A stretch of 64,000 nucleotides of DNA, from positions 512,001 to 576,000 of the forward strand of contig CP000067.1 of assembly GCA_000002445.1 (NCBI GenBank). The letters are read 5' to 3'. This DNA is from Trypanosoma brucei (Eukaryota). Position 1 is the stretch's first letter, and each line of letters starts with the position of its first letter. A program made the position numbers and the translations under genes. Under the pieces are notes generated by a model. The model was given only the letters and a program-made list of their open reading frames with translations. It did no database searches and was not told the DNA's origin. Positions 5,255 through 38,540 of the stretch are shown here, in pieces.

Positions 5255-8200
5255 CTACGCCTCATTTCCACGCAGTTCTTCACGAAGAGCTTTAACCTCA
5301 TCCTCTAGTCTCTTTATAACTAAGTCATTACACTTTCTCAGCTCCTCTTGAGACTCCACATAATACTTCATCGTCTCCTCCTGAACCCTTATAGACTCTC
5401 TCAGCTTTAGCACCCTCTTGGCCAGGACAGAACAAAGATGGCAATCATTAACATCGGACAGACTTGAAAGAAGAGAAGAACCTTCAAAAGCATCACCACT
5501 TCCACCACGATACGAAACACACAAAGACCCACAATCATCATTTATTTTGGACACAACAGCATCATCTTCTTCACAACGAGAAGCGGCAAGAGCCGAAGAA
5601 AGAGGAAAGCCAACTTCCTCCTTCACCTTAAGTGGGGGCACACAGGTACCCGCATCACCACCAGCACCCTCCGTGGCACCCCTTCGGTCGAGGTCAACTC
5701 CACCACCAAACAGGGAATTACTGCCATCCACAGGGCAAAGAACATTACTAGAAATCGCACCTCCAACGTTACCAGATTTTAAAAACACCACATCATGATC
5801 ATCGGAAACGACTCGACAACCCATAACTCTAAGAGCATCAGCAACACAATGACCAACTGTTTTTTCACAAAGAAAAGCACTATCCTTAGAAACCTTAACA
5901 TTCATATTATCCACAGTAGAATACGCAAAATCATTCACAGCACTCCCACAAACATTGGTACATTGCAGAGCTTCATACTTTTCATTCAAAGCCCGTAATG
6001 ATTTAAGTTCATCCTCCATGGCAGAATTCGAACGCCTCGCAGCTTCATACTGTTCATTCAAGGACCGTAATGATTTAAGTTCATCCTCCATTGCAGTATT
6101 ACTACGTTGTAGAGTTTCATACTGTTCATTCAAAGCTCGCAATGATTTAAGTTCATCCTCCATGTCAGAATTCGAACGTCTCGCAGCTTCATACTGTTCA
6201 TTCAAAGCTCGCAATGATTTAAGTTCATCCTCCATGGCAGAATTCGAACGCCTCGCAGCTTCATACTGTTCATTCAAGGACCGTAATGATTTAAGTTCAT
6301 CCTCCATGGCAGTATTACTACGTTGTAGAGTTTCATACTGTTCATTCAAAGCTCGCAATGATTTAAGTTCATCCTCCATGTCAGAATTCGAACGTCTCAC
6401 AGCTTCATACTGTTCATTCGCAGCTCGCAATGAATCAAGTTCTTCCTCCATGGCAGCATTGGTACGTTGCAGAGTTTCATACTGTTCATTCAAAGCTCGC
6501 AATGAATCAAGTTCTTCCTCCATGGCAGCATTGGTACGTTGAAGAGTTTCATACTGTTCATTCAAAGCTCGCAATGAATCAAGTTCATCCTCCATGGCAG
6601 CATTGGTACGTTGCAGAGTTTCATACTGTTCATTCAAAGCTCGCAATGAATCAAGTTCATCTTCCATGGCAGCATTGGTACGTTGCAGAGTTTCATACTG
6701 TTCATTCAAAGCTCGCAATGAATCAAGTTCATCTTCCATGGCAGCATTTAAATGCCGAAGTTCCTCAAGCTCCTCATTCACGGCCTTCTCTTCTTTAGAT
6801 TGCTCTCTTATACCCTCATCAAGTTCCTCAAGTCGGCTGAGATGTCGTTGAAGTGTTGATTCTTCTGTGGTTTCATGAGCTCCGCCAGCGGTGCCGCTAT
6901 TGTTAGCAGGCTTTTTATACTCCTCCATGACGCAATTGATTATTTCCCTTGATTTCTCCTTGATAAATTCGCAACGATATTCTGCCACTTCCTTGAGTCG
7001 TTCAATCTCCTTTAACTTCCTCTCTAGGTTGAGAATCTGCCCGGTCATTGTACTTATAACGTTCCCACTTTCATTGCATTCCCTCTTAAATTCCCTATAG
7101 ACGTTCAAGATATCTAGATCCTCAGCAACAACATCTCGCAATGAATCAAGTTCTTCCTCCATGGCAGCATTAGTACGCTGCAGAGTTTCATACTGTTCAT
7201 TCACAGCTCGCAATGAATCAAGTTCATCCTCCATAGCAGCATTAGTACGTTGCAGAGTTTCATACTGTTCATTCAAAGCTCGCAATGAATCAAGTTCTTC
7301 CTCCATGGCAGCATTGGCACGCTGCAGAGTTTCATACTGTTCATTCAAAGCTCGCAATGAATCAAGTTCTTCCTCCATGGCAGCATTAGTACGTTGCAGA
7401 GTTTCATACTCAGCAACAACATCTCGCAATGAATCGAGTTCATCCTCCATGGCAGCATTGGTACGTTGCAGAGTTTCATACTGTTCATTCACAGCTCGCA
7501 ATGAATCAAGTTCATCCTCCATGGCAGCATTGGTACGTTGCAGAGTTTCATACTGTTCATTCAAAGCTCGCAATGAATCAAGTTCTTCCTCCATGGCAGC
7601 ATTGGCACGCTGCAGAGTTTCATACTGTTCATTCACAGCTCGCAATGAATCAAGTTCATCCTCCATAGCAGCATTAGTACGTTGCAGAGTTTCATACTGT
7701 TCATTCACAGCTCGCAATGAATCAAGTTCATCTTCCATGGCAGCATTGGTACGTTGCAGAGTTTCATACTGTTCATTCACAGCTCGCAATGAATCAAGTT
7801 CATCCTCCATGGCAGCATTGGTACGTTGCAGAGTTTCATACTGTTCATTCAAAGCTCGCAATGAATCAAGTTCATCTTCCATGGCAGCATTAGTACGCTG
7901 CAGAGTTTCATACTGTTCATTCACAGCTCGCAATGAATCAAGTTCATCTTCCATGGCAGCATTGGCACGCTGCAGAGTTTCATACTGTTCATTCAAAGCT
8001 CGCAATGAATCAAGTTCATCCCCCATGGCAGCATTTAAATGCCGAAGTTCCTCAAGCTCCTCATTCACGGCCTTCTCTTCTTTAGATTGCTCTCTTATAC
8101 CCTCATCAAGTTCCTCAAGTCGGCTGAGATGTCGTTGAAGTGTTGATTCTTCTGTGGTTTCATGAGCTCCGCCAGCGGTGCCGCTATTGTTAGCAGGCTT

Positions 8201-11200
8201 TTTATACTCCTCCATGACGCAATTGATTATTTCCCTTGATTTCTCCTTGATAAATTCGCAACGATATTCTGCCACTTCCTTGAGTCGTTCAATCTCCTTT
8301 AACTTCCTCTCTAGGTTGAGAATCTGCCCGGTCATTGTACTTATAACGTTCCCACTTTCATTGCATTCCCTCTTAAATTCCCTATAGACGTTCAAGATAT
8401 CTAGATCCTCAGCAACAACATCTCGCAATGAATCGAGTTCTTCCTCCATGGCAGCATTAGTACGCTGCAGAGTTTCATACTGTTCATTCACAGCTCGCAA
8501 TGAATCAAGTTCATCCTCCATAGCAGCATTAGTACGTTGCAGAGTTTCATACTGTTCATTCAAAGCTCGCAATGAATCAAGTTCATCCTCCATGGCAGCA
8601 TTGGCACGCTGCAGAGTTTCATACTGTTCATTCAAAGCTCGCAATGAATCAAGTTCTTCCTCCATGGCAGCATTAGTACGTTGCAGAGTTTCATACTGTT
8701 CATTCAAAGCTCGCAATGAATCAAGTTCTTCCTCCATGGCAGCATGAGTACGTTGCAGAGTTTCATACTGTTCATTCAAAGCTCGCAATGAATCAAGTTC
8801 TTCCTCCATGGCAGCATGAGTACGTTGCAGAGTTTCATACTGTTCATTCAAAGCTCGCAATGAATCAAGTTCATCCTCCATAGCAGCGTTGGCACGCTGC
8901 AGAGTTTCATACTGTTCATTCACAGCTCGCAATGAATCAAGTTCATCTTCCATGGCAGCATTGGTACGTTGCAGAGTTTCATACTGTTCATTCACAGCTC
9001 GCAATGAATCAAGTTCATCCTCCATGGCAGCATTGGTACGTTGCAGAGTTTCATACTGTTCATTCACAGCTCGTAATGAATCAAGTTCATCTTCCATGGC
9101 AGCATTGGTACGTTGCAGAGTTTCATACTGTTCATTCAAAGCTCGCAATGAATCAAGTTCATCTTCCATGGCAGCATTTAAATGCCGAAGTTCCTCAAGC
9201 TCCTCATTCACGGCCTTCTCTTCTTTAGATTGCTCTCTTATACCCTCATCAAGTTCCTCAAGTCGGCTGAGATGTCGTTGAAGTGTTGATTCTTCTGTGG
9301 TTTCATGAGCTCCGCCAGCGGTGCCGCTATTGTTAGCAGGCTTTTTATACTCCTCCATGACGCAATTGATTATTTCCCTTGATTTCTCCTTGATAAATTC
9401 GCAACGATATTCTGCCACTTCCTTGAGTCGTTCAATCTCCTTTAACTTCCTCTCTAGGTTGAGAATCTGCCCGGTCATTGTACTTATAACGTTCCCACTT
9501 TCATTGCATTCCCTCTTAAATTCCCTATAGACGTTCAAGATATCTAGATCCTCAGCAACAACATCTCGCAATGAATCGAGTTCTTCCTCCATGGCAGCAT
9601 TAGTACGCTGCAGAGTTTCATACTGTTCATTCACAGCTCGCAATGAATCAAGTTCATCCTCCATAGCAGCATTAGTACGTTGCAGAGTTTCATACTGTTC
9701 ATTCAAAGCTCGCAATGAATCAAGTTCATCCTCCATGGCAGCATTGGCACGCTGCAGAGTTTCATACTGTTCATTCAAAGCTCGCAATGAATCAAGTTCT
9801 TCCTCCATGGCAGCATTAGTACGTTGCAGAGTTTCATACTGTTCATTCAAAGCTCGCAATGAATCAAGTTCTTCCTCCATGGCAGCATTAGTACGTTGCA
9901 GAGTTTCATACTGTTCATTCAAAGCTCGCAATGAATCAAGTTCTTCCTCCATGGCAGCATGAGTACGTTGCAGAGTTTCATACTGTTCATTCAAAGCTCG
10001 CAATGAATCAAGTTCTTCCTCCATGGCAGCATGAGTACGTTGCAGAGTTTCATACTGTTCATTCAAAGCTCGCAATGAATCAAGTTCTTCCTCCATGGCA
10101 GCATTAGTACGTTGCAGAGTTTCATACTGTTCATTCAAAGCTCGCAATGAATCAAGTTCATCCTCCATAGCAGCGTTGGCACGCTGCAGAGTTTCATACT
10201 GTTCATTCACAGCTCGCAATGAATCAAGTTCATCTTCCATGGCAGCATTGGTACGTTGCAGAGTTTCATACTGTTCATTCACAGCTCGCAATGAATCAAG
10301 TTCATCCTCCATGGCAGCATTGGTACGTTGCAGAGTTTCATACTGTTCATTCACAGCTCGTAATGAATCAAGTTCATCTTCCATGGCAGCATTGGTACGT
10401 TGCAGAGTTTCATACTGTTCATTCAAAGCTCGCAATGAATCAAGTTCATCTTCCATGGCAGCATTTAAATGCCGAAGTTCCTCAAGCTCCTCATTCACGG
10501 CCTTCTCTTCTTTAGATTGCTCTCTTATACCCTCATCAAGTTCCTCAAGTCGGCTGAGATGTCGTTGAAGTGTTGATTCTTCTGTGGTTTCATGAGCTCC
10601 GCCAGCGGTGCCGCTATTGTTAGCAGGCTTTTTATACTCCTCCATGACGCAATTGATTATTTCCCTTGATTTCTCCTTGATAAATTCGCAACGATATTCT
10701 GCCACTTCCTTGAGTCGTTCAATCTCCTTTAACTTCCTCTCTAGGTTGAGAATCTGCCCGGTCATTGTACTTATAACGTTCCCACTTTCATTGCATTCCC
10801 TCTTAAATTCCCTATAGACGTTCAAGATATCTAGATCCTCAGCAACAACATCTCGCAATGAATCGAGTTCTTCCTCCATGGCAGCATTAGTACGCTGCAG
10901 AGTTTCATACTGTTCATTCACAGCTCGCAATGAATCAAGTTCATCCTCCATAGCAGCATTAGTACGTTGCAGAGTTTCATACTGTTCATTCAAAGCTCGC
11001 AATGAATCAAGTTCATCCTCCATGGCAGCATTGGCACGCTGCAGAGTTTCATACTGTTCATTCAAAGCTCGCAATGAATCAAGTTCTTCCTCCATGGCAG
11101 CATTAGTACGTTGCAGAGTTTCATACTGTTCATTCAAAGCTCGCAATGAATCAAGTTCTTCCTCCATGGCAGCATTAGTACGTTGCAGAGTTTCATACTG

Positions 11201-14200
11201 TTCATTCAAAGCTCGCAATGAATCAAGTTCTTCCTCCATGGCAGCATGAGTACGTTGCAGAGTTTCATACTGTTCATTCAAAGCTCGCAATGAATCAAGT
11301 TCTTCCTCCATGGCAGCATGAGTACGTTGCAGAGTTTCATACTGTTCATTCAAAGCTCGCAATGAATCAAGTTCTTCCTCCATGGCAGCATTAGTACGTT
11401 GCAGAGTTTCATACTGTTCATTCAAAGCTCGCAATGAATCAAGTTCATCCTCCATAGCAGCGTTGGCACGCTGCAGAGTTTCATACTGTTCATTCACAGC
11501 TCGCAATGAATCAAGTTCATCTTCCATGGCAGCATTGGTACGTTGCAGAGTTTCATACTGTTCATTCACAGCTCGCAATGAATCAAGTTCATCCTCCATG
11601 GCAGCATTGGTACGTTGCAGAGTTTCATACTGTTCATTCACAGCTCGTAATGAATCAAGTTCATCTTCCATGGCAGCATTGGTACGTTGCAGAGTTTCAT
11701 ACTGTTCATTCAAAGCTCGCAATGAATCAAGTTCATCTTCCATGGCAGCATTTAAATGCCGAAGTTCCTCAAGCTCCTCATTCACGGCCTTCTCTTCTTT
11801 AGATTGCTCTCTTATACCCTCATCAAGTTCCTCAAGTCGGCTGAGATGTCGTTGAAGTGTTGATTCTTCTGTGGTTTCATGAGCTCCGCCAGCGGTGCCG
11901 CTATTGTTAGCAGGCTTTTTATACTCCTCCATGACGCAATTGATTATTTCCCTTGATTTCTCCTTGATAAATTCGCAACGATATTCTGCCACTTCCTTGA
12001 GTCGTTCAATCTCCTTTAACTTCCTCTCTAGGTTGAGAATCTGCCCGGTCATTGTACTTATAACGTTCCCACTTTCATTGCATTCCCTCTTAAATTCCCT
12101 ATAGACGTTCAAGATATCTAGATCCTCAGCAACAACATCTCGCAATGAATCGAGTTCTTCCTCCATGGCAGCATTAGTACGCTGCAGAGTTTCATACTGT
12201 TCATTCACAGCTCGCAATGAATCAAGTTCATCTTCCATGGCAGCATTGGTACGTTGCAGAGTTTCATACTGTTCATTCAAAGCTCGCAATGAATCAAGTT
12301 CTTCCTCCATGGCAGCATTAGTACGTTGAAGAGTTTCATACTGTTCATTCGCAGCTCGCAATGAATCAAGTTCATCTTCCATGGCAGCATTGGTACGTTG
12401 CAGAGTTTCGTACTGTTCATTCGCAGCTCGCAATGAATCAAGTTCATCTTCCATGGCAGCATTAGTACGTTGCAGAGTTTCATACTGTTCATTCAAAGCT
12501 CGCAATGAATCAAGTTCTTCCTCCATGGCAGCATTAGTACGTTGAAGAGTTTCATACTGTTCATTCGCAGCTCGCAATGAATCAAGTTCTTCCTCCATGG
12601 CAGCATTGGTACGTTGCAGAGTTTCGTACTGTTCATTCACAGCTCGCAATGAATCAAGTTCTTCCTCCATGGCAGCATTAGTACGTTGCAGAGTTTCATA
12701 CTGTTCATTCGCAGCTCGCAATGAATCAAGTTCTTCCTCCATGGCAGCATTAGTACGTTGCAGAGTTTCATACTGTTCATTCGCAGCTCGCAATGAATCA
12801 AGTTCTTCCTCCATGGCAGCATTGGCACGCTGCAGAGTTTCATACTGTTCATTCGCAGCTCGCAATGAATCAAGTTCATCTTCCATGGCAGCATTGGTAC
12901 GTTGCAGAGTTTCATACTGTTCATTCAAAGCTCGCAATGAATCAAGTTCTTCCTCCATGGCAGCATTAGTACGTTGCAGAGTTTCATACTGTTCATTCAA
13001 AGCTCGCAGCGAATCAAGTTCATCCTCCATAGCAGCATTGGTACGTTGTAGAGCTTCATACTGTTCATTCACAGCTCGCAGCGAATCAAGTTCTTCCTCC
13101 ATGGCAGCATTAGTACGTTGTAGAGTTTCATACTGTTCATTCACAGCTCGCAGCGAATCAAGTTCATCCTCCATAGCAGCATTGGTACGTTGTAGAGCTT
13201 CATACTGTTCATTCACAGCTCTCAGTGAATCAAGTTCTTCCTCCATGGCAGCATTGGTACGTTGTAGAGCTTCATACTGTTCATTCACAGCTCTCAGTGA
13301 ATCAAGTTCTTCCTCCATGGCAGCATTAGTACGTTGTAGAGTTTCATACTGTTCATTCACAGCTCGCAATGAATCAAGTTCTTCCTCCATGGCAGCATTG
13401 GTACGTTGCAGAGTTTCATACTGTTCATTCACAGCTCTCAATGAATCAAGTTCATCCTCCATGGCAGCATTGGTACGTTGCAGAGTTTCATACTGTTCAT
13501 TCAAAGCTCGCAATGAATCAAGTTCTTCCTCCATGGCAGCATTAGTACGTTGCAGAGTTTCATACTGTTCATTCAAAGCTCGCAGCGAATCAAGTTCATC
13601 CTCCATAGCAGCATTGGTACGTTGTAGAGCTTCATACTGTTCATTCACAGCTCGCAGCGAATCAAGTTCTTCCTCCATGGCAGCATTAGTACGTTGTAGA
13701 GTTTCATACTGTTCATTCACAGCTCGCAGCGAATCAAGTTCATCCTCCATAGCAGCATTGGTACGTTGTAGAGCTTCATACTGTTCATTCACAGCTCTCA
13801 GTGAATCAAGTTCTTCCTCCATGGCAGCATTGGTACGTTGTAGAGCTTCATACTGTTCATTCACAGCTCTCAGTGAATCAAGTTCTTCCTCCATGGCAGC
13901 ATTAGTACGTTGTAGAGTTTCATACTGTTCATTCACAGCTCGCAATGAATCAAGTTCTTCCTCCATGGCAGCATTGGTACGTTGCAGAGTTTCATACTGT
14001 TCATTCACAGCTCTCAATGAATCAAGTTCATCCTCCATGGCAGCATTGGTACGTTGCAGAGTTTCATACTGTTCATTCACAGCTCGCAATGAATCAAGTT
14101 CATCCTCCATGGCAGCATGAGTACGTTGCAGAGTTTCATACTGTTCATTCACAGCTCGCAATGAATCAAGTTCATCCTCCATGGCAGCATTGGTACGTTG

Positions 14201-17200
14201 CAGAGTTTCATACTGTTCATTCAAAGCTCGTAATGAATCAAGTTCTTCCTCCATGGCAGCATTAGTACGTTGTAGAGTTTCATACTGTTCATTCACAGCT
14301 CGCAATGAATCAAGTTCATCCTCCATAGCAGCATTGGTACGTTGCAGAGTTTCATACTGTTCATTCAAAGCTCGTAATGAATCAAGTTCTTCCTCCATGG
14401 CAGCATTAGTACGTTGAAGAGTTTCATACTGTTCATTCGCAGCTCGTAACGAATCAAGTTCATCCTCCATGGCAGCATTGGTACGTTGCAGAGTTTCATA
14501 CTGTTCCTTCAAAGCTCTCAGTGAATCAAGTTCATCCTCCATGGCAGCATTAGTACGTTGCAGAGTTTCATACTGTTCATTCGCAGCTCTCAGTGAATCA
14601 AGTTCATCCTCCATGGCAGCATTAGTACGTTGAAGAGTTTCATACTGTTCATTCAAAGCTCTCAGTGAATCAAGTTCATCCTCCATGGCAGCATGAGTAC
14701 GTTGAAGAGTTTCATACTGTTCATTCGCAGCTCTCAGTGAATCAAGTTCTTCCTCCATGGCAGCATTAGTACGTTGAAGAGTTTCATACTGTTCATTCAA
14801 AGCTCGCAATGAATCAAGTTCATCTTCCATAACAGCATTAGTACGTTGCAGAGTTTCATACTGCTCATTCAAAGCTCTCAGTGAATCAAGTTCTTCCTCC
14901 ATGGCAGCATTAGTACGTTGAAGAGTTTCATACTGTTCATTCGCAGCTCTCAGTGAATCAAGTTCTTCCTCCATGGCAGCATTAGTACGTTGTAGAGTTT
15001 CATACTGTTCATTCGCAGCTCTCAGTGAATCAAGTTCATTCTGTATTTTATCGTTTGTTGTTCTATCTTCTTTCAGTTGCTTTGGTGTAGCTTGCAGTGG
15101 TTGTTGTTCAATAGCTACTCTGGTGTCTTTATTGCTGTCTTCTTTATACTGTTCATTCAAAGCTCTCAGTGAATCGAGTTCATTTATTATATCTTCGTTG
15201 GTGCGGCGGAGATTTTCATATTGTTCATTCACAGCTCTCAGTGAATCAAGTTCTTCCTCCATGTTGGGGTCGAAGTGCCGCGTGCTTCTTCCTCTTTTTT
15301 TTAATGCCCGTAAATACTCGAGTTGAGCTTCTACTTCGGCATTCAGTTGCTGAAGTATTTTGTACTCTTCTGTGTATTTTCTTTTTTCTGCTATATCGCG
15401 TTCATCGTCAATAATCTTCTCTTTTGTGTTTTTTTCCTGTTTTTTCAGTATACGATGCGTAGGTTGATCTTTTTCGGCACTTATGTTTACATGCTGCAGA
15501 GTTTCACACTGTTCTTTGAAAGCTCGTAACAACTTAAGCTCATTCCCCATATCCTCATTTGTCCGTCTTGCTGCTTTAAGTTCCTTTTGAACGACCCACA
15601 GTGGTTGGTTGCCAACTCCAATATCAGCAGTGGTACGTTGCAGAGCTTCATACTGTTCATTCGCAGCTCGTAACGAATCAAGTTCATCCTCCATGGCAGC
15701 ATTGGTACGTTGCATAGCTTCATACTGTTCATTCACAGCTCGCAATGAATCAAGTTCATCCTCCATAGCAGCATTGGTACGTTGCATAGCTTCATACTGT
15801 TCATTCACAGCTCTCAATGAATCAAGTTCATCCTCTATGGCAGCATTGGTACGTTGCATAGCTTCATACTGTTCATTCACAGCTCTCAATGAATCAAGTT
15901 CATCCTCTATGGCAGCATTGGTACGTTGCATAGCTTCATACTGTTCATTCACAGCTCGCAACGAATCAAGTTCATCCTCCATGGCAGCATTGGTACGTTG
16001 CAGAGTTTCATACTGTTCATTCACAGCTCGCAATGAATCAAGTTCATCCTCCATAGCAGCATTGGTACGTTGCATAGCTTCATACTGTTCATTCACAGCT
16101 CTCAATGAATCAAGTTCATCCTCCATGGCAGCATTGGTACGTTGCAGAGTTTCATACTGTTCATTCAAAGCTCGCAATGAATCAAGTTCTTCCTCCATGG
16201 CAGCATTAGTACGTTGCAGAGTTTCATACTGTTCATTCACAGCTCGTAATGAATCAAGTTCATCCTCTATGGCAGCATTGGTACGTTGCATAGCTTCATA
16301 CTGTTCATTCACAGCTCTCAATGAATCAAGTTCATCCTCTATGGCAGCATTGGTACGTTGCGCGGTATCTTTGTTGACTGTGCTTTCAATGGAAATTATA
16401 CGCTGTTGTTGTTGCTGAGACTGGCTCTCTACGTCAGCGGCAAACTCTGTACAACATTGAGTTGGGTTTGACTCCTTCGTTTTTTTTATTTTTGGGGATG
16501 GCTGTTGTTTTTTGCTTCTTTTATGTGGTGTTTGGTCGGCTTTATACTTTGTTAACTTGAGGTGCTCTCGGGCCTCCTTACTGTCCGCTTGTGTTTTGCG
16601 TACTTTATGTGTTTTATCCTTTTCCTCTCTGCTTATTTTTGTTGCTACTTCTTTTTTACTCTTTTTGTGATCAACTGCCGTTCGTGCGGTAAGCTTTTTT
16701 GTAGTGCGTGCCCCTTCTTCCCTATCGCTTGTGACTGAATTGCTGCTAATGTTTGCTGCTGATGGCAACCTCTTTAGTATTTCTCCCCCCTCGTTTGTGT
16801 ATGTCTTGTCTTCATTTTCTTTGGGGAGGTGTGTGTCACTCTGGGAACGAGGGGAATCTGTGTGCTCTTGTGCTTCTGAAGAAATTATAGCTGTCCCCTT
16901 CCCTTTCTTCTTCGCTGCAGTTGCTTTGGTGGATGTCTTGGATAAACGTGACTGCTTACCGGTATCGTGATCCCCAGTAGCGTCGACATCCGTATTAGCT
17001 GCTGCCGTGTGTGTGTCTTTTGTATTTGTTACCCGACTGTGCGCTGACCGAGCCGCGTCGCTTTGCGAAAACCCGCACATCCCCTTGTCATCCTTTTCCT
17101 CATCAGCCGTAACAACCAGGGGGCCGTGCCGACCTGTGTGAATCGCTGCATTGGTGGACTTTCTTTCCTGATCGGGGACCATCCCGTGTCGGTCGTCCAA

Positions 17201-18622
17201 TCCCTCCTCCATACTGTTTCTCTCCTCCAGGAACCGTTGGAGTTCGATTGTATGCTTGAAGCTCCCTTCAGAACAAGGAAGTTGGTTATGTTGCGTGGAA
17301 ACATCCTCTCCTTGTGTAGCGACCAATAAACCTCCTTCATCGATAGCGTTTTGCAGCTTCTTTATTATTCCCTCCAACATATCATTGGTCCTTTGAAGCT
17401 CCTCAAGGGAATGGATCAACTCGCCCTGTCGCCTCGCAGACTCTTCCTCCGCCTTCTGAGCCTCTTCCAACTGGCCTCGGAGGACTTTGTTCTCTCTCTC
17501 ACAAATAGCCAACTGTTGCAGAAGCGTTCTGTTTTCACTCCGAATGTTCTCCATTTCTGTTCGAAGTTCAGCCGCATCCTTCTCCACAACCTTTATTCGT
17601 TCGTCCTCGTCGACACTGTGCTGACCACGTTCTAACGAAGCGTCACTGCACGCTCCCACAACATCCGGCTTACTAGAAGACAAGCCCACCTTGTTTTTGG
17701 AATTCACATACTTGAGGCTGTCGGATTGCAACGTGATGTACCTCCACAGCTCTGACCGGTGAATTGTCGCTATTTTGGGGATGCTGCCTTCTATCAACGC
17801 TGTCGGGATGATAGAAGATCGAAGAATGGTTTTCTCTGGCATCGGTAGGTCATCGAGGGCGTTCCCCCCTTCAACCGCCGCAAGACGATCCTGAATATCC
17901 CTGATAGCAAGGACAATACGTTCCAGATGTTCTTGGGAAGATGCAGCTAGCGTAGTGGCTGCCACATGGTTATGATTCACGTAGTTTAGCTGAGCCTTCA
18001 CCCATTGATGGAGTGGCCCCGCAGCACGTGACGCCACCGAAGCATCGTCGTCGCTGATATCGTTGCTCCTGCAGCGCTTGATGATCTCGTTTCGGCGCTC
18101 GGGAGGCAGCTTTGAAGGGTCAAAACTGAGGACACGTGCTATAAAGCCCGGTTGCCTGAGTTGTGCGCGCAGCTCAGCCCAAGTAGAGGTGGGTAAAGTG
18201 ATACCCAATATAATGAGAATGTCATCCAATATTTTCCTTACAATGGGCGGTGGTGACACATATGACTGAAGCTCTCGGAAGCAAGCACCTTCGATTCCTT
18301 CAACCATGGTGTTAGCACGCTCAACTTGGATTCTCAACGATGCGATACGCTCCTCCTCAACGGCTGCTCTTCCATTCCGTAGTTGTTGGCGTAGTGCAAG
18401 CAGTTGCTCTTTATATGCGGTTGCCCTCTCATCCACGTCTTGTGAAGGGCTATTGTTTGCTACGGAAACACGAGCCACATAATCGGAAAGAAATGTTACA
18501 TACCCCTTCTCGTAGCACCAAGAATCGTCTCTCAGCGTATCAAACGCAACTAAGTCACCGACAGAGACGACATCAGATTTCACTTGAGATAATACTGATT
18601 CATCAAACTCCAAGATCTCCAT
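5255..18622 (-). CDS. Giant repetitive coiled-coil protein (4455 aa) with an N-terminal dynein-stalk microtubule-binding-like domain and ~140 copies of a 24-aa repeat
   Basis: A single uninterrupted 13,368-nt ORF. The N-terminus (aa ~75–250) aligns by eye to dynein heavy chain CC1–MTBD–CC2 (YVSPPPIVRKILDDILIILG…TWAELRAQLRQPGFIARVLSFDPSKLPPERRNEIIKRCRSNDIS…ASRAAGPLHQWVKAQLNYV). The middle is a 24-aa repeat, consensus roughly AMEEELDSLRALNEQYETLQRTNA. The C-terminus is ~330 aa of unique sequence. This position between ALBA and CC2D matches my recollection of a T. brucei 'antigenic protein, putative'. Confidence 0.85.
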   Translation of the reverse strand: MEILEFDESVLSQVKSDVVSVGDLVAFDTLRDDSWCYEKGYVTFLSDYVARVSVANNSPSQDVDERATAYKEQLLALRQQLRNGRAAVEEERIASLRIQVERANTMVEGIEGACFRELQSYVSPPPIVRKILDDILIILGITLPTSTWAELRAQLRQPGFIARVLSFDPSKLPPERRNEIIKRCRSNDISDDDASVASRAAGPLHQWVKAQLNYVNHNHVAATTLAASSQEHLERIVLAIRDIQDRLAAVEGGNALDDLPMPEKTILRSSIIPTALIEGSIPKIATIHRSELWRYITLQSDSLKYVNSKNKVGLSSSKPDVVGACSDASLERGQHSVDEDERIKVVEKDAAELRTEMENIRSENRTLLQQLAICERENKVLRGQLEEAQKAEEESARRQGELIHSLEELQRTNDMLEGIIKKLQNAIDEGGLLVATQGEDVSTQHNQLPCSEGSFKHTIELQRFLEERNSMEEGLDDRHGMVPDQERKSTNAAIHTGRHGPLVVTADEEKDDKGMCGFSQSDAARSAHSRVTNTKDTHTAAANTDVDATGDHDTGKQSRLSKTSTKATAAKKKGKGTAIISSEAQEHTDSPRSQSDTHLPKENEDKTYTNEGGEILKRLPSAANISSNSVTSDREEGARTTKKLTARTAVDHKKSKKEVATKISREEKDKTHKVRKTQADSKEAREHLKLTKYKADQTPHKRSKKQQPSPKIKKTKESNPTQCCTEFAADVESQSQQQQQRIISIESTVNKDTAQRTNAAIEDELDSLRAVNEQYEAMQRTNAAIEDELDSLRAVNEQYETLQRTNAAMEEELDSLRALNEQYETLQRTNAAMEDELDSLRAVNEQYEAMQRTNAAMEDELDSLRAVNEQYETLQRTNAAMEDELDSLRAVNEQYEAMQRTNAAIEDELDSLRAVNEQYEAMQRTNAAIEDELDSLRAVNEQYEAMQRTNAAMEDELDSLRAVNEQYEAMQRTNAAMEDELDSLRAANEQYEALQRTTADIGVGNQPLWVVQKELKAARRTNEDMGNELKLLRAFKEQCETLQHVNISAEKDQPTHRILKKQEKNTKEKIIDDERDIAEKRKYTEEYKILQQLNAEVEAQLEYLRALKKRGRSTRHFDPNMEEELDSLRAVNEQYENLRRTNEDIINELDSLRALNEQYKEDSNKDTRVAIEQQPLQATPKQLKEDRTTNDKIQNELDSLRAANEQYETLQRTNAAMEEELDSLRAANEQYETLQRTNAAMEEELDSLRALNEQYETLQRTNAVMEDELDSLRALNEQYETLQRTNAAMEEELDSLRAANEQYETLQRTHAAMEDELDSLRALNEQYETLQRTNAAMEDELDSLRAANEQYETLQRTNAAMEDELDSLRALKEQYETLQRTNAAMEDELDSLRAANEQYETLQRTNAAMEEELDSLRALNEQYETLQRTNAAMEDELDSLRAVNEQYETLQRTNAAMEEELDSLRALNEQYETLQRTNAAMEDELDSLRAVNEQYETLQRTHAAMEDELDSLRAVNEQYETLQRTNAAMEDELDSLRAVNEQYETLQRTNAAMEEELDSLRAVNEQYETLQRTNAAMEEELDSLRAVNEQYEALQRTNAAMEEELDSLRAVNEQYEALQRTNAAMEDELDSLRAVNEQYETLQRTNAAMEEELDSLRAVNEQYEALQRTNAAMEDELDSLRALNEQYETLQRTNAAMEEELDSLRALNEQYETLQRTNAAMEDELDSLRAVNEQYETLQRTNAAMEEELDSLRAVNEQYETLQRTNAAMEEELDSLRAVNEQYEALQRTNAAMEEELDSLRAVNEQYEALQRTNAAMEDELDSLRAVNEQYETLQRTNAAMEEELDSLRAVNEQYEALQRTNAAMEDELDSLRALNEQYETLQRTNAAMEEELDSLRALNEQYETLQRTNAAMEDELDSLRAANEQYETLQRANAAMEEELDSLRAANEQYETLQRTNAAMEEELDSLRAANEQYETLQRTNAAMEEELDSLRAVNEQYETLQRTNAAMEEELDSLRAANEQYETLQRTNAAMEEELDSLRALNEQYETLQRTNAAMEDELDSLRAANEQYETLQRTNAAMEDELDSLRAANEQYETLQRTNAAMEEELDSLRALNEQYETLQRTNAAMEDELDSLRAVNEQYETLQRTNAAMEEELDSLRDVVAEDLDILNVYREFKRECNESGNVISTMTGQILNLERKLKEIERLKEVAEYRCEFIKEKSREIINCVMEEYKKPANNSGTAGGAHETTEESTLQRHLSRLEELDEGIREQSKEEKAVNEELEELRHLNAAMEDELDSLRALNEQYETLQRTNAAMEDELDSLRAVNEQYETLQRTNAAMEDELDSLRAVNEQYETLQRTNAAMEDELDSLRAVNEQYETLQRANAAMEDELDSLRALNEQYETLQRTNAAMEEELDSLRALNEQYETLQRTHAAMEEELDSLRALNEQYETLQRTHAAMEEELDSLRALNEQYETLQRTNAAMEEELDSLRALNEQYETLQRTNAAMEEELDSLRALNEQYETLQRANAAMEDELDSLRALNEQYETLQRTNAAMEDELDSLRAVNEQYETLQRTNAAMEEELDSLRDVVAEDLDILNVYREFKRECNESGNVISTMTGQILNLERKLKEIERLKEVAEYRCEFIKEKSREIINCVMEEYKKPANNSGTAGGAHETTEESTLQRHLSRLEELDEGIREQSKEEKAVNEELEELRHLNAAMEDELDSLRALNEQYETLQRTNAAMEDELDSLRAVNEQYETLQRTNAAMEDELDSLRAVNEQYETLQRTNAAMEDELDSLRAVNEQYETLQRANAAMEDELDSLRALNEQYETLQRTNAAMEEELDSLRALNEQYETLQRTHAAMEEELDSLRALNEQYETLQRTHAAMEEELDSLRALNEQYETLQRTNAAMEEELDSLRALNEQYETLQRTNAAMEEELDSLRALNEQYETLQRANAAMEDELDSLRALNEQYETLQRTNAAMEDELDSLRAVNEQYETLQRTNAAMEEELDSLRDVVAEDLDILNVYREFKRECNESGNVISTMTGQILNLERKLKEIERLKEVAEYRCEFIKEKSREIINCVMEEYKKPANNSGTAGGAHETTEESTLQRHLSRLEELDEGIREQSKEEKAVNEELEELRHLNAAMEDELDSLRALNEQYETLQRTNAAMEDELDSLRAVNEQYETLQRTNAAMEDELDSLRAVNEQYETLQRTNAAMEDELDSLRAVNEQYETLQRANAAMEDELDSLRALNEQYETLQRTHAAMEEELDSLRALNEQYETLQRTHAAMEEELDSLRALNEQYETLQRTNAAMEEELDSLRALNEQYETLQRANAAMEDELDSLRALNEQYETLQRTNAAMEDELDSLRAVNEQYETLQRTNAAMEEELDSLRDVVAEDLDILNVYREFKRECNESGNVISTMTGQILNLERKLKEIERLKEVAEYRCEFIKEKSREIINCVMEEYKKPANNSGTAGGAHETTEESTLQRHLSRLEELDEGIREQSKEEKAVNEELEELRHLNAAMGDELDSLRALNEQYETLQRANAAMEDELDSLRAVNEQYETLQRTNAAMEDELDSLRALNEQYETLQRTNAAMEDELDSLRAVNEQYETLQRTNAAMEDELDSLRAVNEQYETLQRTNAAMEDELDSLRAVNEQYETLQRANAAMEEELDSLRALNEQYETLQRTNAAMEDELDSLRAVNEQYETLQRTNAAMEDELDSLRDVVAEYETLQRTNAAMEEELDSLRALNEQYETLQRANAAMEEELDSLRALNEQYETLQRTNAAMEDELDSLRAVNEQYETLQRTNAAMEEELDSLRDVVAEDLDILNVYREFKRECNESGNVISTMTGQILNLERKLKEIERLKEVAEYRCEFIKEKSREIINCVMEEYKKPANNSGTAGGAHETTEESTLQRHLSRLEELDEGIREQSKEEKAVNEELEELRHLNAAMEDELDSLRALNEQYETLQRTNAAMEDELDSLRALNEQYETLQRTNAAMEDELDSLRALNEQYETLQRTNAAMEEELDSLRALNEQYETLQRTNAAMEEELDSLRAANEQYEAVRRSNSDMEDELKSLRALNEQYETLQRSNTAMEDELKSLRSLNEQYEAARRSNSAMEDELKSLRALNEQYEAARRSNSDMEDELKSLRALNEQYETLQRSNTAMEDELKSLRSLNEQYEAARRSNSAMEDELKSLRALNEKYEALQCTNVCGSAVNDFAYSTVDNMNVKVSKDSAFLCEKTVGHCVADALRVMGCRVVSDDHDVVFLKSGNVGGAISSNVLCPVDGSNSLFGGGVDLDRRGATEGAGGDAGTCVPPLKVKEEVGFPLSSALAASRCEEDDAVVSKINDDCGSLCVSYRGGSGDAFEGSSLLSSLSDVNDCHLCSVLAKRVLKLRESIRVQEETMKYYVESQEELRKCNDLVIKRLEDEVKALREELRGNEA
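5955..16420 (-). repeat. Tandem array of a 72-bp (24-codon) in-frame coding repeat, ~140 copies (~10.4 kb)
   Basis: The plus strand shows the 72-mer 'ccatggcagcattggtacgttgcagagtttcatactgttcattcacagctcgcaatgaatcaagttcatcctc' iterated. Copies near the centre are almost identical; copies at both edges are degenerate (E→K, A/V/L and T/A variants). Confidence 0.95.
6710..12140 (-). repeat. Higher-order tandem repeat: 5 copies of a ~1287-bp unit (one copy 1143 bp)
   Basis: Each unit is a ~130-aa unique block plus ~12 of the 72-bp repeats. Identical plus-strand 69-aa ORFs recur at 6891, 8178, 9321, 10608 and 11895 (spacing 1287, 1143, 1287, 1287). Identical 98/157-aa ORFs recur at 8932, 10219 and 11506. 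The units starting at 9321, 10608 and 11895 appear essentially base-identical. The protein shows the block 'DVVAEDLDILNVYREFKRECNESGNV…LEELRHLN' five times plus one truncated junction ('DVVAEYETLQ'). Confidence 0.9.
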
Positions 18623-38490: not shown

Positions 38491-38516
38491 TATATATATA
38501 TATATATATATATATA
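38491..38516. repeat. (TA)13 microsatellite
   Basis: A direct read of tatatatata… It sits in the 5' leader region of the WD40-like gene. Shorter (TA)n tracts also occur at ~4316–4328, 37979–37992 and 61287–61304. Confidence 0.95.
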
Positions 38517-38540
38517 GATTCGTCCTGTGAGGTCCTCATA

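What the first reader, a model, noticed from the sequence alone, without database searches (positions are those of the whole stretch)
5955..16420. ~10.4 kb in-frame 72-bp tandem array with homogenised centre and decayed edges
About 140 copies of a 24-aa unit (consensus AMEEELDSLRALNEQYETLQRTNA) form what must be an extremely long, charged coiled coil of roughly 3,400 residues. Central copies are nearly identical at the DNA level. The C-terminal-side copies (5955–6420) carry E→K, T→S and L→A substitutions arranged in a 3-unit (216-bp) super-period: ARRSNSDMEDELKSLRAL / TLQRSNTAMEDELKSLRSL / AARRSNSAMEDELKSLRAL. The N-terminal-side copies (14400–16400) carry A→V/I, R→L and T→A variants. Long tandem-repeat proteins of trypanosomes are classically immunodominant antigens, and the copy number is probably polymorphic between alleles and strains. 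A 24-residue period does not fit a heptad phase (24 is not a multiple of 7). Each repeat should therefore introduce a regular stutter, which may be structurally meaningful.
Basis: seen in the sequence. Interest (0 to 1): 0.6.

Follow-up and report, generated by a model that had tools for sequence, protein, structure and literature searches.

The report
Giant repeat rod of trypanosome microtubule protein
The 10-kb repeat array is real and encodes the rod of an already annotated 511-kDa Trypanosoma brucei protein (Tb927.4.2070) found at the cell's microtubule skeleton; it is not one uniform array but is broken by five near-identical hinge modules, and the protein starts with a motor-less copy of dynein's microtubule-binding domain.

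Summary
The 72-bp array is real (TRF 5953-16361). It lies in one minus-strand ORF, 5255-18622, 4455 aa. Published tagging primers match the ORF's 3' end, so the gene is T. brucei Tb927.4.2070 ('antigenic protein'/AGP). Its 24-aa repeats are already noted in print, and TrypTag places it in the anterior-dorsal cortical microtubule cytoskeleton.

- There are 110 full units, not about 140. They cover 76% of the interval.
- Five near-identical 141-aa modules interrupt the array and form a 1287-bp higher-order repeat, with a 2127-nt exact run at that offset.
- The most decayed zone is internal (aa 1000-1191). The N-terminal edge is not decayed.
- The C-terminal 216-bp super-period is confirmed.

AlphaFold2 predicts one continuous helix through repeats and module, broken only by a 17-residue Pro/Gly hinge.

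Hydrophobic periodicity is 24/7 = 3.43, which is a stammer per unit, not a stutter. The T. vivax and T. cruzi orthologues also repeat every 24 aa, with different sequences.

Residues 59-255 are a dynein stalk-tip microtubule-binding domain without a motor (PDB phmmer 1.5e-10; Foldseek top 48 hits all dynein). Pfam misses it. T. theileri Gb4 has the same domain.

Verdict: a known gene, with new architectural detail and modest interest.

The parts
5255..18622 (-). Complete CDS of Tb927.4.2070 (4455 aa, 511 kDa, pI 4.4), stop codon included
   Evidence: Single ORF. The published C-terminal tagging primer matches 5258-5344(-) with 0 mismatches, and the 3'UTR primer matches 5162-5255 with 1 mismatch. 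Mass and pI.
18449..18622 (-). aa 1-58: small N-terminal segment conserved in orthologues and in Gb4-like proteins (V21, G22, V25 and W35 invariant in the alignment); fold unresolved
   Evidence: Alignment A1 lists invariant V21, G22, V25 and W35. AlphaFold2 pLDDT is below 50 here.
17858..18448 (-). aa 59-255: dynein-type stalk tip. Helix CC1 (59-108), six-helix microtubule-binding knob (about 109-218, window 17969-18298), helix CC2 (227-251). No AAA+ motor anywhere in the ORF.
   Evidence: phmmer against PDB gives 1.5e-10 to 6rzb_C and similar values to 3err, 5ayh and 3wuq. 606 library hits at E<=1e-3, including full-length dyneins that match at about residue 3000-3500. AlphaFold2 pLDDT is about 90. 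The top 48 Foldseek PDB hits are all dynein stalk/MTBD; isolated MTBDs give TM 0.69-0.74 and rmsd 2.7-3.2 A. Pfam PF12777 is not hit even at E<=10.
17603..17857 (-). aa 256-340: segment with the motif EKTILRSSII, near-identical in the four Trypanosoma orthologues; structure unresolved
   Evidence: Alignment A1. Low pLDDT.
17213..17602 (-). aa 341-470: non-repeat, E/L-rich stretch; coiled coil inferred from composition only
   Evidence: Composition (E 18%, L 12%). Only weak, sub-threshold hits to coiled-coil Pfam families (GAS, APG6_N). No structure prediction was run on this stretch.
16370..17212 (-). aa 471-751: K/T/S-rich low-complexity linker (net charge +10). It sits where the T. cruzi orthologue carries a FAZ1_cons domain.
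   Evidence: Composition. Pfam on orthologues: FAZ1_cons at 525-610 in P0152 and P0004, none in the T. brucei, T. vivax or T. theileri proteins.
15626..16369 (-). N-terminal repeat block: one partial unit plus 10 full 24-aa units (aa 752-999), 1-5 mismatches per 72 nt to consensus
15050..15625 (-). Internal degenerate zone, aa 1000-1191: three badly decayed units among proline-containing non-repeat stretches; probable flexible region
   Evidence: 11-29 mismatches per 72 nt. Almost the same peptide, a few substitutions apart, is present in T. equiperdum.
12170..15049 (-). Longest uninterrupted block: 40 units (aa 1192-2151). It contains an exact 8-unit (576-bp) duplication, 13466-14041 = 12890-13465.
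   Evidence: DNA identity of the two copies verified.
7166..12169 (-). Four complete copies of the higher-order repeat: 141-aa module plus 12 units (429 aa, 1287 bp). HOR1 10883-12169, HOR2 9596-10882, HOR3 8453-9595 (10 units instead of 12, so 1143 bp), HOR4 7166-8452 (rearranged; contains a hybrid unit at 7382-7453).
   Evidence: Exact run of 2127 nt at offset 1287. The five modules differ by at most 1 nt. Unit-type strings, coordinates.
6743..7165 (-). Fifth copy of the 141-aa module (aa 3820-3960)
11870..11920 (-). Predicted flexible hinge KKPANNSGTAGGAHETT inside module 1. The same hinge lies at 10583-10633, 9296-9346, 8153-8203 and 6866-6916.
   Evidence: In the AlphaFold2 model of aa 2080-2364 this is the only non-helical, low-confidence stretch (residues 156-172 of the segment, pLDDT about 32). 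Continuous helices run on both sides. Coordinates.
5951..6742 (-). C-terminal repeat block, 11 units (aa 3961-4224). The last seven are diverged; six of them form two copies of a 3-unit (216-bp) super-period, and five of those six carry D7->K (6023-6454).
5258..5950 (-). aa 4225-4455: non-repeat C-terminal region (Cys/Gly/Ser/Val-rich, then a short terminal charged, heptad-like stretch). No known domain and no transmembrane segment.
   Evidence: No Pfam family above threshold. No PDB sequence match. At most 13 of 19 hydrophobic residues in any window.

Best explanation
The array encodes the rod of Tb927.4.2070, a 511-kDa protein of the T. brucei subpellicular (cortical) microtubule cytoskeleton.

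**Shown**
- Gene identity.
- One intact 4455-aa reading frame.
- A two-level repeat: 72-bp units nested in a 1287-bp higher-order repeat.
- An N-terminal domain (aa 59-255) homologous in sequence and predicted fold to the tip of the dynein stalk, meaning an antiparallel helical hairpin plus the six-helix microtubule-binding knob, with no motor.
- The same domain heads T. theileri Gb4. GB4 is a known giant repeat protein of cortical microtubule plus ends.
- Published tagging places Tb927.4.2070 in the anterior-dorsal sub-domain of the cortical microtubule array.

**Inferred**
- The dynein-like domain docks the protein on microtubules.
- The 3,465-residue acidic repeat region forms an alpha-helical, probably parallel two-stranded, coiled coil.
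  - It has seven core positions per 24 residues (M2, L6, L9, V/L12, Y16, L19, N23).
  - That amounts to one 3-residue stammer per unit and an average periodicity of 3.43.
- The rod is segmented by flexible points: the proline-containing zone at aa 1000-1191, and five identical 17-residue Pro/Gly hinges spaced 429 residues (381 for one interval) apart, about 61-64 nm.
- Fully extended, the rod would be about 0.5 um long. It would act as a long, jointed linker or spacer on or between cortical microtubules.

**DNA level**
- The array is maintained by unequal recombination or gene conversion at both repeat levels.
- The evidence is perfect 1287-bp copies, an exact 8-unit duplication, a copy with two units deleted, and a hybrid module/unit junction.
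For: **Identity**
- Primer matches.
- Neighbours are a C2-domain CC2D-like gene and a FAZ1_cons gene, in the same order as in T. equiperdum.

**Microtubule-binding domain**
- phmmer against PDB gives 1.5e-10.
- 606 library hits, including full-length dyneins aligned at their stalk tips.
- AlphaFold2 pLDDT is about 90 for aa 59-255.
- Foldseek: the top 48 PDB hits are all dynein stalk/MTBD, with isolated MTBDs at TM 0.69-0.74 and rmsd 2.7-3.2 A.
- The domain is conserved at 39-50% identity in the T. vivax, T. theileri and T. cruzi orthologues, with invariant Y121, PP124-125, G140, W148, F160, D168, S198, A200, G202, W207 and Q211.
- It is 31% identical, E 2e-19, to the N-terminus of T. theileri 'microtubule-associated protein Gb4'.
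- GB4 marks cortical microtubule plus ends (PMC13544905, PMC5397161).

**Localisation and fraction**
- It was recovered only from the BioID 'P' fraction of TbPLK, which I read as the detergent-insoluble pellet (PMC4551316).

**Rod**
- AlphaFold2 gives one helix through three repeats plus 73 aa of module, a 17-residue break, then helix again.
- The hydrophobic power peak is at 3.429.
- The best 7-position core scores 0.86 per position, against 0.59 for a 48/13 pattern and at most 0.28 for 24/6.
- E5, L6, S8, L9, Y16 and E17 are invariant and R10 is invariant but for one decayed unit. Variation is confined to conservative changes at a few positions.
- The 24-aa period is kept in T. vivax and T. 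cruzi while the sequence diverges.

**Repeat dynamics**.
Against: - No binding experiment exists. Several basic residues in the dynein sequence of that alignment, in the stretch I take to be helix H1, are not conserved in position (alignment).
- Pfam's own dynein-stalk model does not detect the domain.
- N-terminal Ty1 tagging gave 'primarily cytoplasmic' labelling (PMC4551316), although a tag next to the binding domain could itself cause that.
- The protein co-purifies with EIF4E3/EIF4G4 and is proximal to ALBA4, which hints at an mRNP link.
- The coiled-coil state is inferred from a monomer prediction made without an alignment (pTM 0.28).
- A net charge of about -4 per unit per chain is unfavourable for self-association.
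- The T. vivax and T. cruzi units contain Gly, and position 23 of the T. brucei unit is Asn (His in 8 units). The unit alignment between species is ambiguous, so the Gly cannot be mapped to that position. Regular helix breaks therefore cannot be excluded.
- The FFT peak at 24/7 is partly forced, because a strictly 24-periodic sequence has power only at harmonics of 24.
- The copy number of perfect 1287-bp repeats may be mis-assembled.
Confidence: 0.6

Rival explanations
1. The protein is mainly a cytoplasmic mRNP or translation-associated scaffold, or a cytoskeleton-to-mRNP tether. The cortical signal would then be secondary.
For: - It is enriched with both EIF4E3 and EIF4G4 in pull-downs (PMC9585242).
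- It is a constant ALBA4 proximity partner (PMC10998879).
- 'CYTO' labelling with an N-terminal Ty1 tag (PMC4551316).
Against: - No RNA-binding domain was found.
- The only recognisable domain is a microtubule-binding one.
- A 13.4-kb mRNA carries many nascent chains of a highly repetitive, abundant-peptide protein. Co-purification with the cap-binding complex that translates it is therefore an expected artefact (inference).
- TrypTag places the protein in a cortical sub-domain.
Confidence: 0.12
2. The protein is a flagellum attachment zone (FAZ) component, like its two genomic neighbours, or is FAZ10 itself.
For: - The gene lies between a FAZ1_cons-domain gene (2501-4336) and a C2-domain gene matching CC2D (20620-23337).
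- Both neighbours are 'Whole FAZ' in TrypTag.
- The T. cruzi orthologue carries a FAZ1_cons domain.
Against: - FAZ10 is Tb927.7.3330 on chromosome 7, with 35-aa repeats and a 13,005-bp ORF (PMC5358337). It is a different gene.
- TrypTag lists Tb927.4.2070 under cortical cytoskeleton, not FAZ.
- The legend of the same paper's Extended Data Fig. [quoted passage not shown]
- The T. brucei protein has no FAZ1_cons domain.
Confidence: 0.05
3. The repeats have no precise structural role. They are an expandable, immunodominant 'smoke-screen' antigen, and the 24-aa period and copy number are evolutionary accidents.
For: - The database name is 'antigenic protein' in T. brucei, T. cruzi, T. theileri and T. 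conorhini.
- Many trypanosomatid tandem-repeat proteins are B-cell antigens (general knowledge).
Against: - No serological data were found.
- The protein is intracellular and cytoskeletal.
- The 24-aa period is kept in three species while the sequence changes.
- Core positions are invariant and substitutions are conservative. The synonymous to nonsynonymous ratio of about 1:1 indicates constraint.
Confidence: 0.08
4. The size and the perfect 1287-bp copies are partly an assembly product, so the true number of modules and units differs from that in the window.
For: - 3.4 kb of perfectly periodic sequence is longer than Sanger or Illumina reads.
- The T. equiperdum OVI contig stops exactly where the array begins.
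- The T. equiperdum IVM-t1 assembly has about 6.2 kb here, with an N gap and frameshifts.
- Another giant repeat protein, FAZ10, migrates far above its annotated size (PMC5358337).
Against: - The frame is intact over 13.4 kb.
- Higher-order copies 3, 4 and 5 carry individual differences: a two-unit deletion, a hybrid unit and a single-nucleotide difference. A purely computational expansion would not create these.
- This rival changes the size of the array, not its nature.
Confidence: 0.35

Closest known systems
GB4 (microtubule-associated protein Gb4) of T. brucei and its relatives in T. theileri, Angomonas and Phytomonas
   Same: - A giant kinetoplastid cytoskeletal protein with a short unique N-terminus followed by a huge near-perfect tandem array. 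GB4 has 37 x 600 nt (PMC5397161).
- It localises to a sub-domain of the cortical microtubule array.
- The T. theileri Gb4 N-terminus carries the same dynein-like microtubule-binding domain (31% identity, E 2e-19; Pfam PF12777 at marginal score).
   Different: - GB4-type repeats are globular FAZ1_cons domains (7-14 copies in the sequences scanned). They are not 24-aa helical units.
- GB4 sits at the posterior (plus-end) tip, while Tb927.4.2070 is anterior-dorsal.
- I could not retrieve T. brucei GB4 itself, so the domain was shown in the T. theileri protein only.
Dynein heavy chain stalk and microtubule-binding domain (Pfam PF12777; PDB 3err, 5ayh, 6rzb, 6kio)
   Same: Sequence homology and predicted fold of aa 59-255: CC1, a six-helix knob and CC2.
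   Different: - There is no AAA+ ring, linker or tail.
- The stalk helices are short (about 50 and 25 residues).
- The domain lies at the N-terminus of a structural repeat protein.
- Several basic residues of the dynein sequence, in the stretch I take to be helix H1, are not conserved in position.
- The Pfam model does not reach any score.
FAZ10 (Tb927.7.3330) and NUP-1 (Tb927.2.4230), other giant repeat proteins of T. brucei
   Same: - Proteins of about 400 kDa or more (FAZ10 at least 502 kDa predicted), built of near-perfect tandem repeats and predicted to form extended coiled coils (PMC5358337, PMC3313915).
- Copy number is hard to assemble.
- They were studied alongside Tb927.4.2070 by DuBois et al., who published tagging, RNAi and qRT-PCR primers for all three.
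   Different: - The repeat lengths differ: 35 aa in FAZ10 and 144 aa in NUP-1, against 24 aa here.
- The locations differ: FAZ staples and the nuclear lamina.
- No Pfam family or similar recognisable motif is reported for the FAZ10 N-terminus.
Coiled coils with regular heptad discontinuities (stutters and stammers)
   Same: Hydrophobic core spacing of 4-3-3-4-3-4-3 per 24 residues contains one 3-3 step, which is a stammer. A stammer-stutter pair has been modelled in the FAZ10 central region (bioRxiv 10.64898/2026.05.05.722045).
   Different: Here the discontinuity would recur 110 times at a fixed 24-residue interval. That gives a global periodicity of 3.43 rather than an isolated local defect. 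No structure of such a regular stammer array was examined here.

Membership tests
Tb927.4.2070 ('antigenic protein'/AGP) of T. brucei | DNA identity with published gene-specific primers at the 3' end of the ORF and in the 3'UTR | tested here: met
   87/87 nt at 5258-5344(-) and 93/94 nt at 5162-5255(+).
Tb927.4.2070 ('antigenic protein'/AGP) of T. brucei | Very large protein consisting mainly of 24-aa repeats, as described in print | tested here: met
   110 units of 24 aa. Description in PMC9585242.
Tb927.4.2070 ('antigenic protein'/AGP) of T. brucei | Chromosome-4 synteny between the C2-domain gene (CC2D, Tb927.4.2080) and the FAZ1_cons gene (Tb927.4.2060) | tested here: met
   Pfam on the neighbours. 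The same gene order is found in T. equiperdum locus L001.
Dynein heavy chain stalk/MTBD (PF12777) | Significant sequence similarity to solved dynein microtubule-binding domains | tested here: met
   1.5e-10 to 6rzb_C. 39 of the 43 PDB sequences at E<=1 are named as dynein chains; the rest are mostly unnamed chains from axonemal entries.
Dynein heavy chain stalk/MTBD (PF12777) | Fold: six-helix knob at the tip of an antiparallel helical hairpin | tested here: met
   AlphaFold2 helices 59-108, 112-218 (six or seven short helices) and 227-251 at pLDDT about 90. Foldseek TM 0.69-0.74 to isolated MTBDs.
Dynein heavy chain stalk/MTBD (PF12777) | Reaches the Pfam gathering score | tested here: not met
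   No PF12777 match even at E<=10. Relatives score 31.3, 22.3 and 16.1 bits against a cut-off of 24.
Dynein heavy chain (the motor) | AAA+ ring, linker and tail in the same polypeptide | tested here: not met
   No AAA or dynein motor family in any part of the ORF scanned. Everything after aa 760 is repeats, modules and a 231-aa tail.
Dynein heavy chain stalk/MTBD (PF12777) | Binds microtubules | not testable with these tools
   Only indirect evidence: cortical microtubule-array localisation in TrypTag.
GB4-like kinetoplastid giant microtubule-associated proteins | N-terminal dynein-like MTBD followed by a giant tandem array | tested here: met
GB4-like kinetoplastid giant microtubule-associated proteins | Repeats made of FAZ1_cons (PF23398) domains | tested here: not met
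   None in the T. brucei protein. One copy in the T. cruzi orthologue. 7-14 copies in P0030 and P0128 and 2 in P0017.
Canonical heptad coiled coil | Hydrophobic a/d positions with 7-residue (3.5) periodicity | tested here: not met
   The period is 24, with 7 core positions (3.43) and a 3-3 step in each unit.
Canonical heptad coiled coil | Continuous alpha-helix | tested here: met
   AlphaFold2 monomer: helix 2-155 and 173-284 of the 285-aa segment. This was a single-sequence prediction.
Canonical heptad coiled coil | Defined oligomer (two or more strands) | not testable with these tools
   Only monomer prediction was available.
FAZ10 | 35-aa repeats; chromosome 7; 13,005-bp ORF | tested here: not met
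   PMC5358337, against 24-aa repeats and a 13,368-bp ORF here.
Giantin/golgin (label used by Koumandou 2008) | C-terminal transmembrane anchor; Golgi location | tested here: not met
   No hydrophobic segment in the last 231 aa (at most 13/19). Cortical localisation. Label.
Immunodominant tandem-repeat antigens of trypanosomatids | Recognition of the repeat by infection sera | not testable with these tools
   Name only. No paper with the peptides was found.

The most novel reading that the evidence does not exclude
Tb927.4.2070, GB4 and their relatives may form a kinetoplastid family of motor-less proteins that reuse the dynein stalk-tip domain to dock giant repeat rods on cortical microtubules.

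In this member the 24-residue 'stammer' coiled coil and the hinges every 429 residues would make a jointed ruler. The hinge spacing is about 61-64 nm, close to eight tubulin dimers, but this match is numerology at present. The segment length and copy number of the ruler would then help define the anterior-dorsal sub-domain of the corset.

I found no paper describing a dynein-type microtubule-binding domain outside dynein in these proteins. Database annotations such as the Angomonas protein name show that the similarity has been seen automatically for some relatives.
Probability: 0.15. Interest if true: 0.6.

Novelty: already known. Interest (0 to 1): 0.33.

Why it matters
The array itself is not news. 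The gene is annotated, its 24-aa repeats are mentioned in print, and its localisation is in TrypTag. What this analysis adds could guide experiments on a protein whose function is unknown.

1. **A testable microtubule anchor.** The protein has a concrete candidate binding module, a dynein-type domain without a motor, which Pfam misses. The domain is shared with GB4-like proteins, so giant cortical proteins of trypanosomes may dock by a common module.
2. **A jointed rod.** The rod is cut by near-identical hinge modules. Each ~129-aa non-repeat module sequence is absent from the 24-aa units, so it is a potential target for probes, antibodies or editing inside an otherwise repetitive gene, although it recurs five times.
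3. **A conserved period.** The 24-residue period is kept across Trypanosoma species while the sequence drifts. This points to a constraint on geometry. The protein is a natural candidate for studying a coiled coil with a stammer in every repeat.
4. **A caution for annotators.** The perfect 1287-bp copies mean that copy number in short-read assemblies is unreliable.

Tried and rejected
- **FAZ10 identity.** This was my first guess from size and organism. I rejected it because FAZ10 has 35-aa repeats, lies on chromosome 7 and has a different ORF length.
- **Pfam on the N-terminus, module, repeats and C-terminus.** It returned only low-complexity coiled-coil noise such as DASH_Duo1 and Spectrin at or below threshold, which I do not interpret. 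The dynein-stalk model PF12777 is not hit at all.
- **Globular module idea.** I expected the 129-aa module to be a globular domain. AlphaFold2 instead shows helix, a 17-residue hinge, then helix.
- **Helix-capping idea.** The Asn at position 23 and the Gly in the orthologue units suggested a helix break after each unit, giving hairpins. AlphaFold2 does not support this for T. brucei (continuous helix, pLDDT 92-96). It is not excluded, because the prediction is a monomer made without an alignment.
- **Residue-by-residue homology of the units between species.** The alignment is ambiguous: 7/24 identities in my register, but 7-8/24 at a shift of 14. Only conservation of the period is claimed.
- **Literature search for the repeat peptides.** No papers.
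- **Search for 'dynein MTBD-like' domains in non-motor proteins.** Nothing relevant.
- **Exact-sequence look-ups.** The 4455-aa protein and the 612-aa neighbour are not on record, so the source assembly of the window was not identified.
- **Profile search with alignment A1 in the word-indexed database.** It returned only the T. equiperdum fragment.
- **Copy number from other strains.** Both reachable T. equiperdum assemblies are broken or gapped at the array.
- **DuBois et al. 2012.** The paper gives primers for tagging, RNAi and qRT-PCR of Tb927.4.2070 but reports no result for it in the main text.
- **Other checks.** There are no tRNA genes in the window and no notable repeats in the strand-switch region.

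Full report

Yes in outline. Tandem Repeats Finder reports a 72-bp array at 5968-16351 with 144.9 nominal copies, but only 74% matches and 8% indels. The same array scores higher at period 144 (5953-16351, score 8662) and is also seen at period 216. The array lies inside a single minus-strand ORF, 5255-18622, of 4455 codons. The long plus-strand 'ORFs' inside the array (for example 12597-14120) are stop-free antisense frames of the repeat and nothing more.

**2.

I parsed the protein in 24-residue register.
- There are 110 full units (at least 12/24 identical to consensus) in nine blocks, with 58 distinct DNA types and 31 peptide types. They cover 7,920 nt, or 76% of the stated interval.
- The remainder is of two kinds.
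  - An internal degenerate zone at aa 1000-1191 (window 15050-15625). Three badly decayed units sit among proline-containing non-repeat stretches.
  - Five copies of a 141-aa interruption at aa 2152, 2581, 3010, 3391 and 3820. Each is a truncated unit AMEEELDSLR, about 129 aa of unrelated sequence, then NA.
- The five interruptions are identical at the DNA level apart from one nucleotide.
- Together with the 12 units that follow, each interruption forms a 1287-bp (429-aa) higher-order repeat. The sequence matches itself exactly for 2127 nt at an offset of 1287.
- Copy 3 has 10 units instead of 12 (1143 bp). Copy 4 is rearranged and holds a hybrid unit, AMEDELDSLRDVVAEYETLQRTNA, at 7382-7453. 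Copy 5 is only the module.
- The 40-unit block also contains an exact 576-bp (8-unit) duplication.

Homogenisation therefore acts mainly on large blocks.
- At the 72-bp level, central units are 93.2% identical to each other.
- The N-edge block is 91.8% identical to them, so it is not decayed.
- Only the last seven C-terminal units are clearly diverged (82.7%).

The characteristic change is D7->K, not E->K.

**3. Which gene is it?**

- The C-terminal in-situ tagging primer published for Tb927.4.2070 by DuBois et al. (PMC3313915) matches 5258-5344 on the minus strand without mismatch.
- The 3'UTR primer matches 5162-5255 with one mismatch at its last base.
- The upstream neighbour (20620-23337, 906 aa) has a C2 domain, as expected for CC2D/Tb927.4.2080.
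- The downstream neighbour (2501-4336) has the FAZ1_cons domain.
- The same gene order is seen in T. equiperdum.
- The closest database protein is 'antigenic protein [T. brucei equiperdum]', 98-99% identical over the N-terminus.

My first guess, FAZ10, was wrong. FAZ10 is on chromosome 7 and has 35-aa repeats.

**4. What is already published on it.**

- Bezerra et al. [quoted passage not shown]
- It is a constant ALBA4 proximity partner.
- It was labelled 'giantin' and found 3.1-fold differentially expressed between life stages in a 2008 array study.
- It was recovered in the 'P' fraction of a TbPLK BioID screen, which I read as the detergent-insoluble pellet. With an N-terminal Ty1 tag it was scored 'CYTO'.
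- The TrypTag source data for Extended Data Fig. [quoted passage not shown] Its two neighbours are 'Whole FAZ'.
- I found no functional study.

**5. The N-terminus: the best clue to function.**

- Pfam finds nothing.
- phmmer against PDB sequences matches aa 65-216 to dynein microtubule-binding domains at 1.5e-10 (6rzb_C; also 3err, 5ayh, 3wuq). 39 of the 43 matches are named as dynein chains.
- A full scan of 1.84 billion representatives gives 606 hits at E<=1e-3.
  - The best five are Trypanosoma orthologues.
  - Many of the rest are 4,000-5,000-aa dyneins matched at about residue 3,000-3,500.
- AlphaFold2, with a six-sequence alignment, predicts aa 59-255 at pLDDT about 90. The model has a 50-residue helix, six or seven short helices, and a 25-residue return helix.
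- The top 48 Foldseek hits in the PDB are all dynein stalk or microtubule-binding domains. Isolated domains superpose at TM 0.69-0.74 and rmsd 2.7-3.2 A.
- There is no AAA+ motor anywhere in the ORF.
- The same domain heads T. theileri 'microtubule-associated protein Gb4' (31% identity, E 2e-19), an Angomonas protein named 'Microtubule-binding stalk of dynein motor', and a Phytomonas protein.
- In those three proteins it is followed by repeated FAZ1_cons domains.
- The T. cruzi orthologue of our gene keeps one FAZ1_cons domain at 525-610. The T. brucei, T. vivax and T. theileri orthologues have none.
- GB4 is an established marker of cortical microtubule plus ends, with 37 x 600-nt repeats.

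The protein is therefore best viewed as a relative of the GB4 type: a dynein-like microtubule-binding head on a giant repeat body.

**6. The rod.**

- The repeat region has 3,465 residues and a net charge of -485. The whole protein is 511 kDa with pI 4.4.
- AlphaFold2 on aa 2080-2364 gives one uninterrupted helix through three units and the first ~73 residues of the module. It then gives a 17-residue low-confidence break (KKPANNSGTAGGAHETT), then helix again through the rest of the module and three more units. This was a single sequence, with pLDDT 88.5 and pTM 0.28, as expected for a rod.
- The module is therefore a stretch of different helical sequence with a flexible hinge, not a globular domain. 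Its two ends still resemble units: DVVAE...Y and AVNEELEELRHLNA (read).
- Hinges recur every 429 residues (381 for one interval). That is about 412 helical residues, or about 61 nm at an assumed rise of about 0.148 nm per residue, the usual value for coiled coils.
- The whole repeat region would span about 0.5 um if extended (inference).

**7. Register.**

- Positions E5, L6, S8, L9, Y16 and E17 are invariant in the 107 units counted, and R10 is invariant in all but one of the 110. Position 12 varies only among L, V and A.
- The hydrophobic power spectrum peaks at 3.429 = 24/7.
- An exhaustive search of 3/4 spacing patterns gives M2-L6-L9-V/L12-Y16-L19-N23(T22), scoring 0.86 per position. A 48/13 pattern scores 0.59 and 24/6 scores at most 0.28.
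- The 3-3 step is a stammer (24 = 21 + 3), not a stutter. It implies overwinding relative to a heptad coil.
- Caveat: a strictly 24-periodic sequence can only show power at harmonics of 24, so the FFT result is partly forced.

**8. Comparison with other species.**

- The T. vivax orthologue (unit AELKAAGASAKELEKLRGDNARLE) and the T. cruzi orthologue (unit LDALQRQNEELQSQLKESRRGEEK) also repeat every 24 residues.
- The T. theileri fragment shows a 14-residue period instead.
- Their best core patterns are x-L6-L9-N13-L16-L20-x.
- The unit-to-unit alignment between species is not unique, so I claim conservation of the period only.
- Among 55 distinct T. brucei units, synonymous and nonsynonymous codon differences from consensus are 112:116. 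This indicates constraint on the peptide.

**9. Reliability of the copy number.**

- The exact 4455-aa product is not in the gene-position collection.
- One T. equiperdum contig ends exactly where the array starts.
- The other assembly has only about 6.2 kb here, with an N gap, frameshifts, two modules and no K-type units.
- These say the locus is hard to assemble. They do not show that alleles differ.
- The individual differences among higher-order copies 3-5 argue that the window's sequence is resolved rather than invented. Even so, the number of perfect copies should be checked with long reads.

**10. Verdict.**

- The feature is an already annotated and partly described gene, so novelty is low.
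- This analysis adds the hierarchical hinge-module architecture, the correction from stutter to stammer, conservation of the period across species, and the dynein-type microtubule-binding head shared with GB4-like proteins.
- The head fits the published cortical microtubule localisation and gives a direct experimental handle.

Noticed in passing
window 2501-4336 (-) and 20620-23337 (-): Both genes flanking the giant gene look like flagellum attachment zone proteins. One has a FAZ1_cons domain (E 8.5e-30) and the other a C2 domain (CC2D-like). TrypTag lists Tb927.4.2060 and Tb927.4.2080 as 'Whole FAZ'. With Tb927.4.2070 this makes three cytoskeletal genes in a row, although the TrypTag paper's Extended Data Fig. 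[quoted passage not shown]
   Followed up: partly
P0030, P0017, P0128 (relatives); P0152 and P0004 residues 525-610: The Pfam domain FAZ1_cons (PF23398) is the repeat unit of GB4-like proteins that also start with the dynein-like domain. The T. cruzi orthologue of Tb927.4.2070 keeps one copy, while the T. brucei, T. vivax and T. theileri orthologues have none. This suggests an ancestral architecture of dynein-like domain plus FAZ1_cons, with domain loss in some lineages.
   Followed up: partly
window 7382-7453 (-), aa 3724-3747: A hybrid unit, AMEDELDSLRDVVAEYETLQRTNA, carries the first five residues of the 129-aa module (DVVAE) inside an otherwise normal unit. It is either a scar of module deletion or gene conversion, or a hint that the module start evolved from a unit.
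   Followed up: partly
window 692-1261 (-): A 190-aa ORF with an Alba domain (E 2.5e-17) lies about 4 kb downstream of the giant gene. An ALBA4 proximity study lists Tb927.4.2070 as a constant partner. The genomic closeness is probably coincidence.
   Followed up: no
window about 23400-28500: This is a divergent strand-switch region. ORFs and GC skew are minus-oriented up to about 23.3 kb and plus-oriented from about 28.5 kb, and the skew changes sign at 26-28 kb. There are no tRNA genes and no notable repeats.
   Followed up: partly
window 18449-18622 (aa 1-58) and 17603-17857 (aa 256-340): Two segments flanking the dynein-like domain are conserved in the orthologues: invariant V21/G22/V25/W35, and the motif EKTILRSSII. 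AlphaFold2 gives them low confidence, with one predicted strand each (45-53 and 263-271). They might pair into a small domain at the base of the hairpin.
   Followed up: no
L001 12261-16226; L002 end of contig: Public T. equiperdum assemblies break at this array. One contig ends at its first unit. The other holds an N gap and frameshifts that split the gene into 658-, 488- and 302-aa gene models.
   Followed up: yes
representative-library hits P0013 (746 aa, 5 stretches), P0014 (1150 aa, 4 stretches), P0006 (Picozoa), P0008 (Cyanophora): Some short non-kinetoplastid proteins match the dynein-like domain in several separate stretches. They may be proteins with tandem MTBD-like domains or fragments of dynein gene models. 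I did not examine them.
   Followed up: no
window 38490-38516: (AT)13.5 dinucleotide microsatellite, overlapping the 5' end (from a GTG start) of a mechanically listed WD40-repeat ORF (38412-39767).
   Followed up: no
window 41391-44423, 54411-59465, 34879-35820, 51587-53368 (+): Other genes of the plus-strand unit: a CFAP58-like coiled-coil protein, a Sec7-domain GEF (1685 aa), a PP2C phosphatase and a GTP_EFTU-domain GTPase.
   Followed up: no
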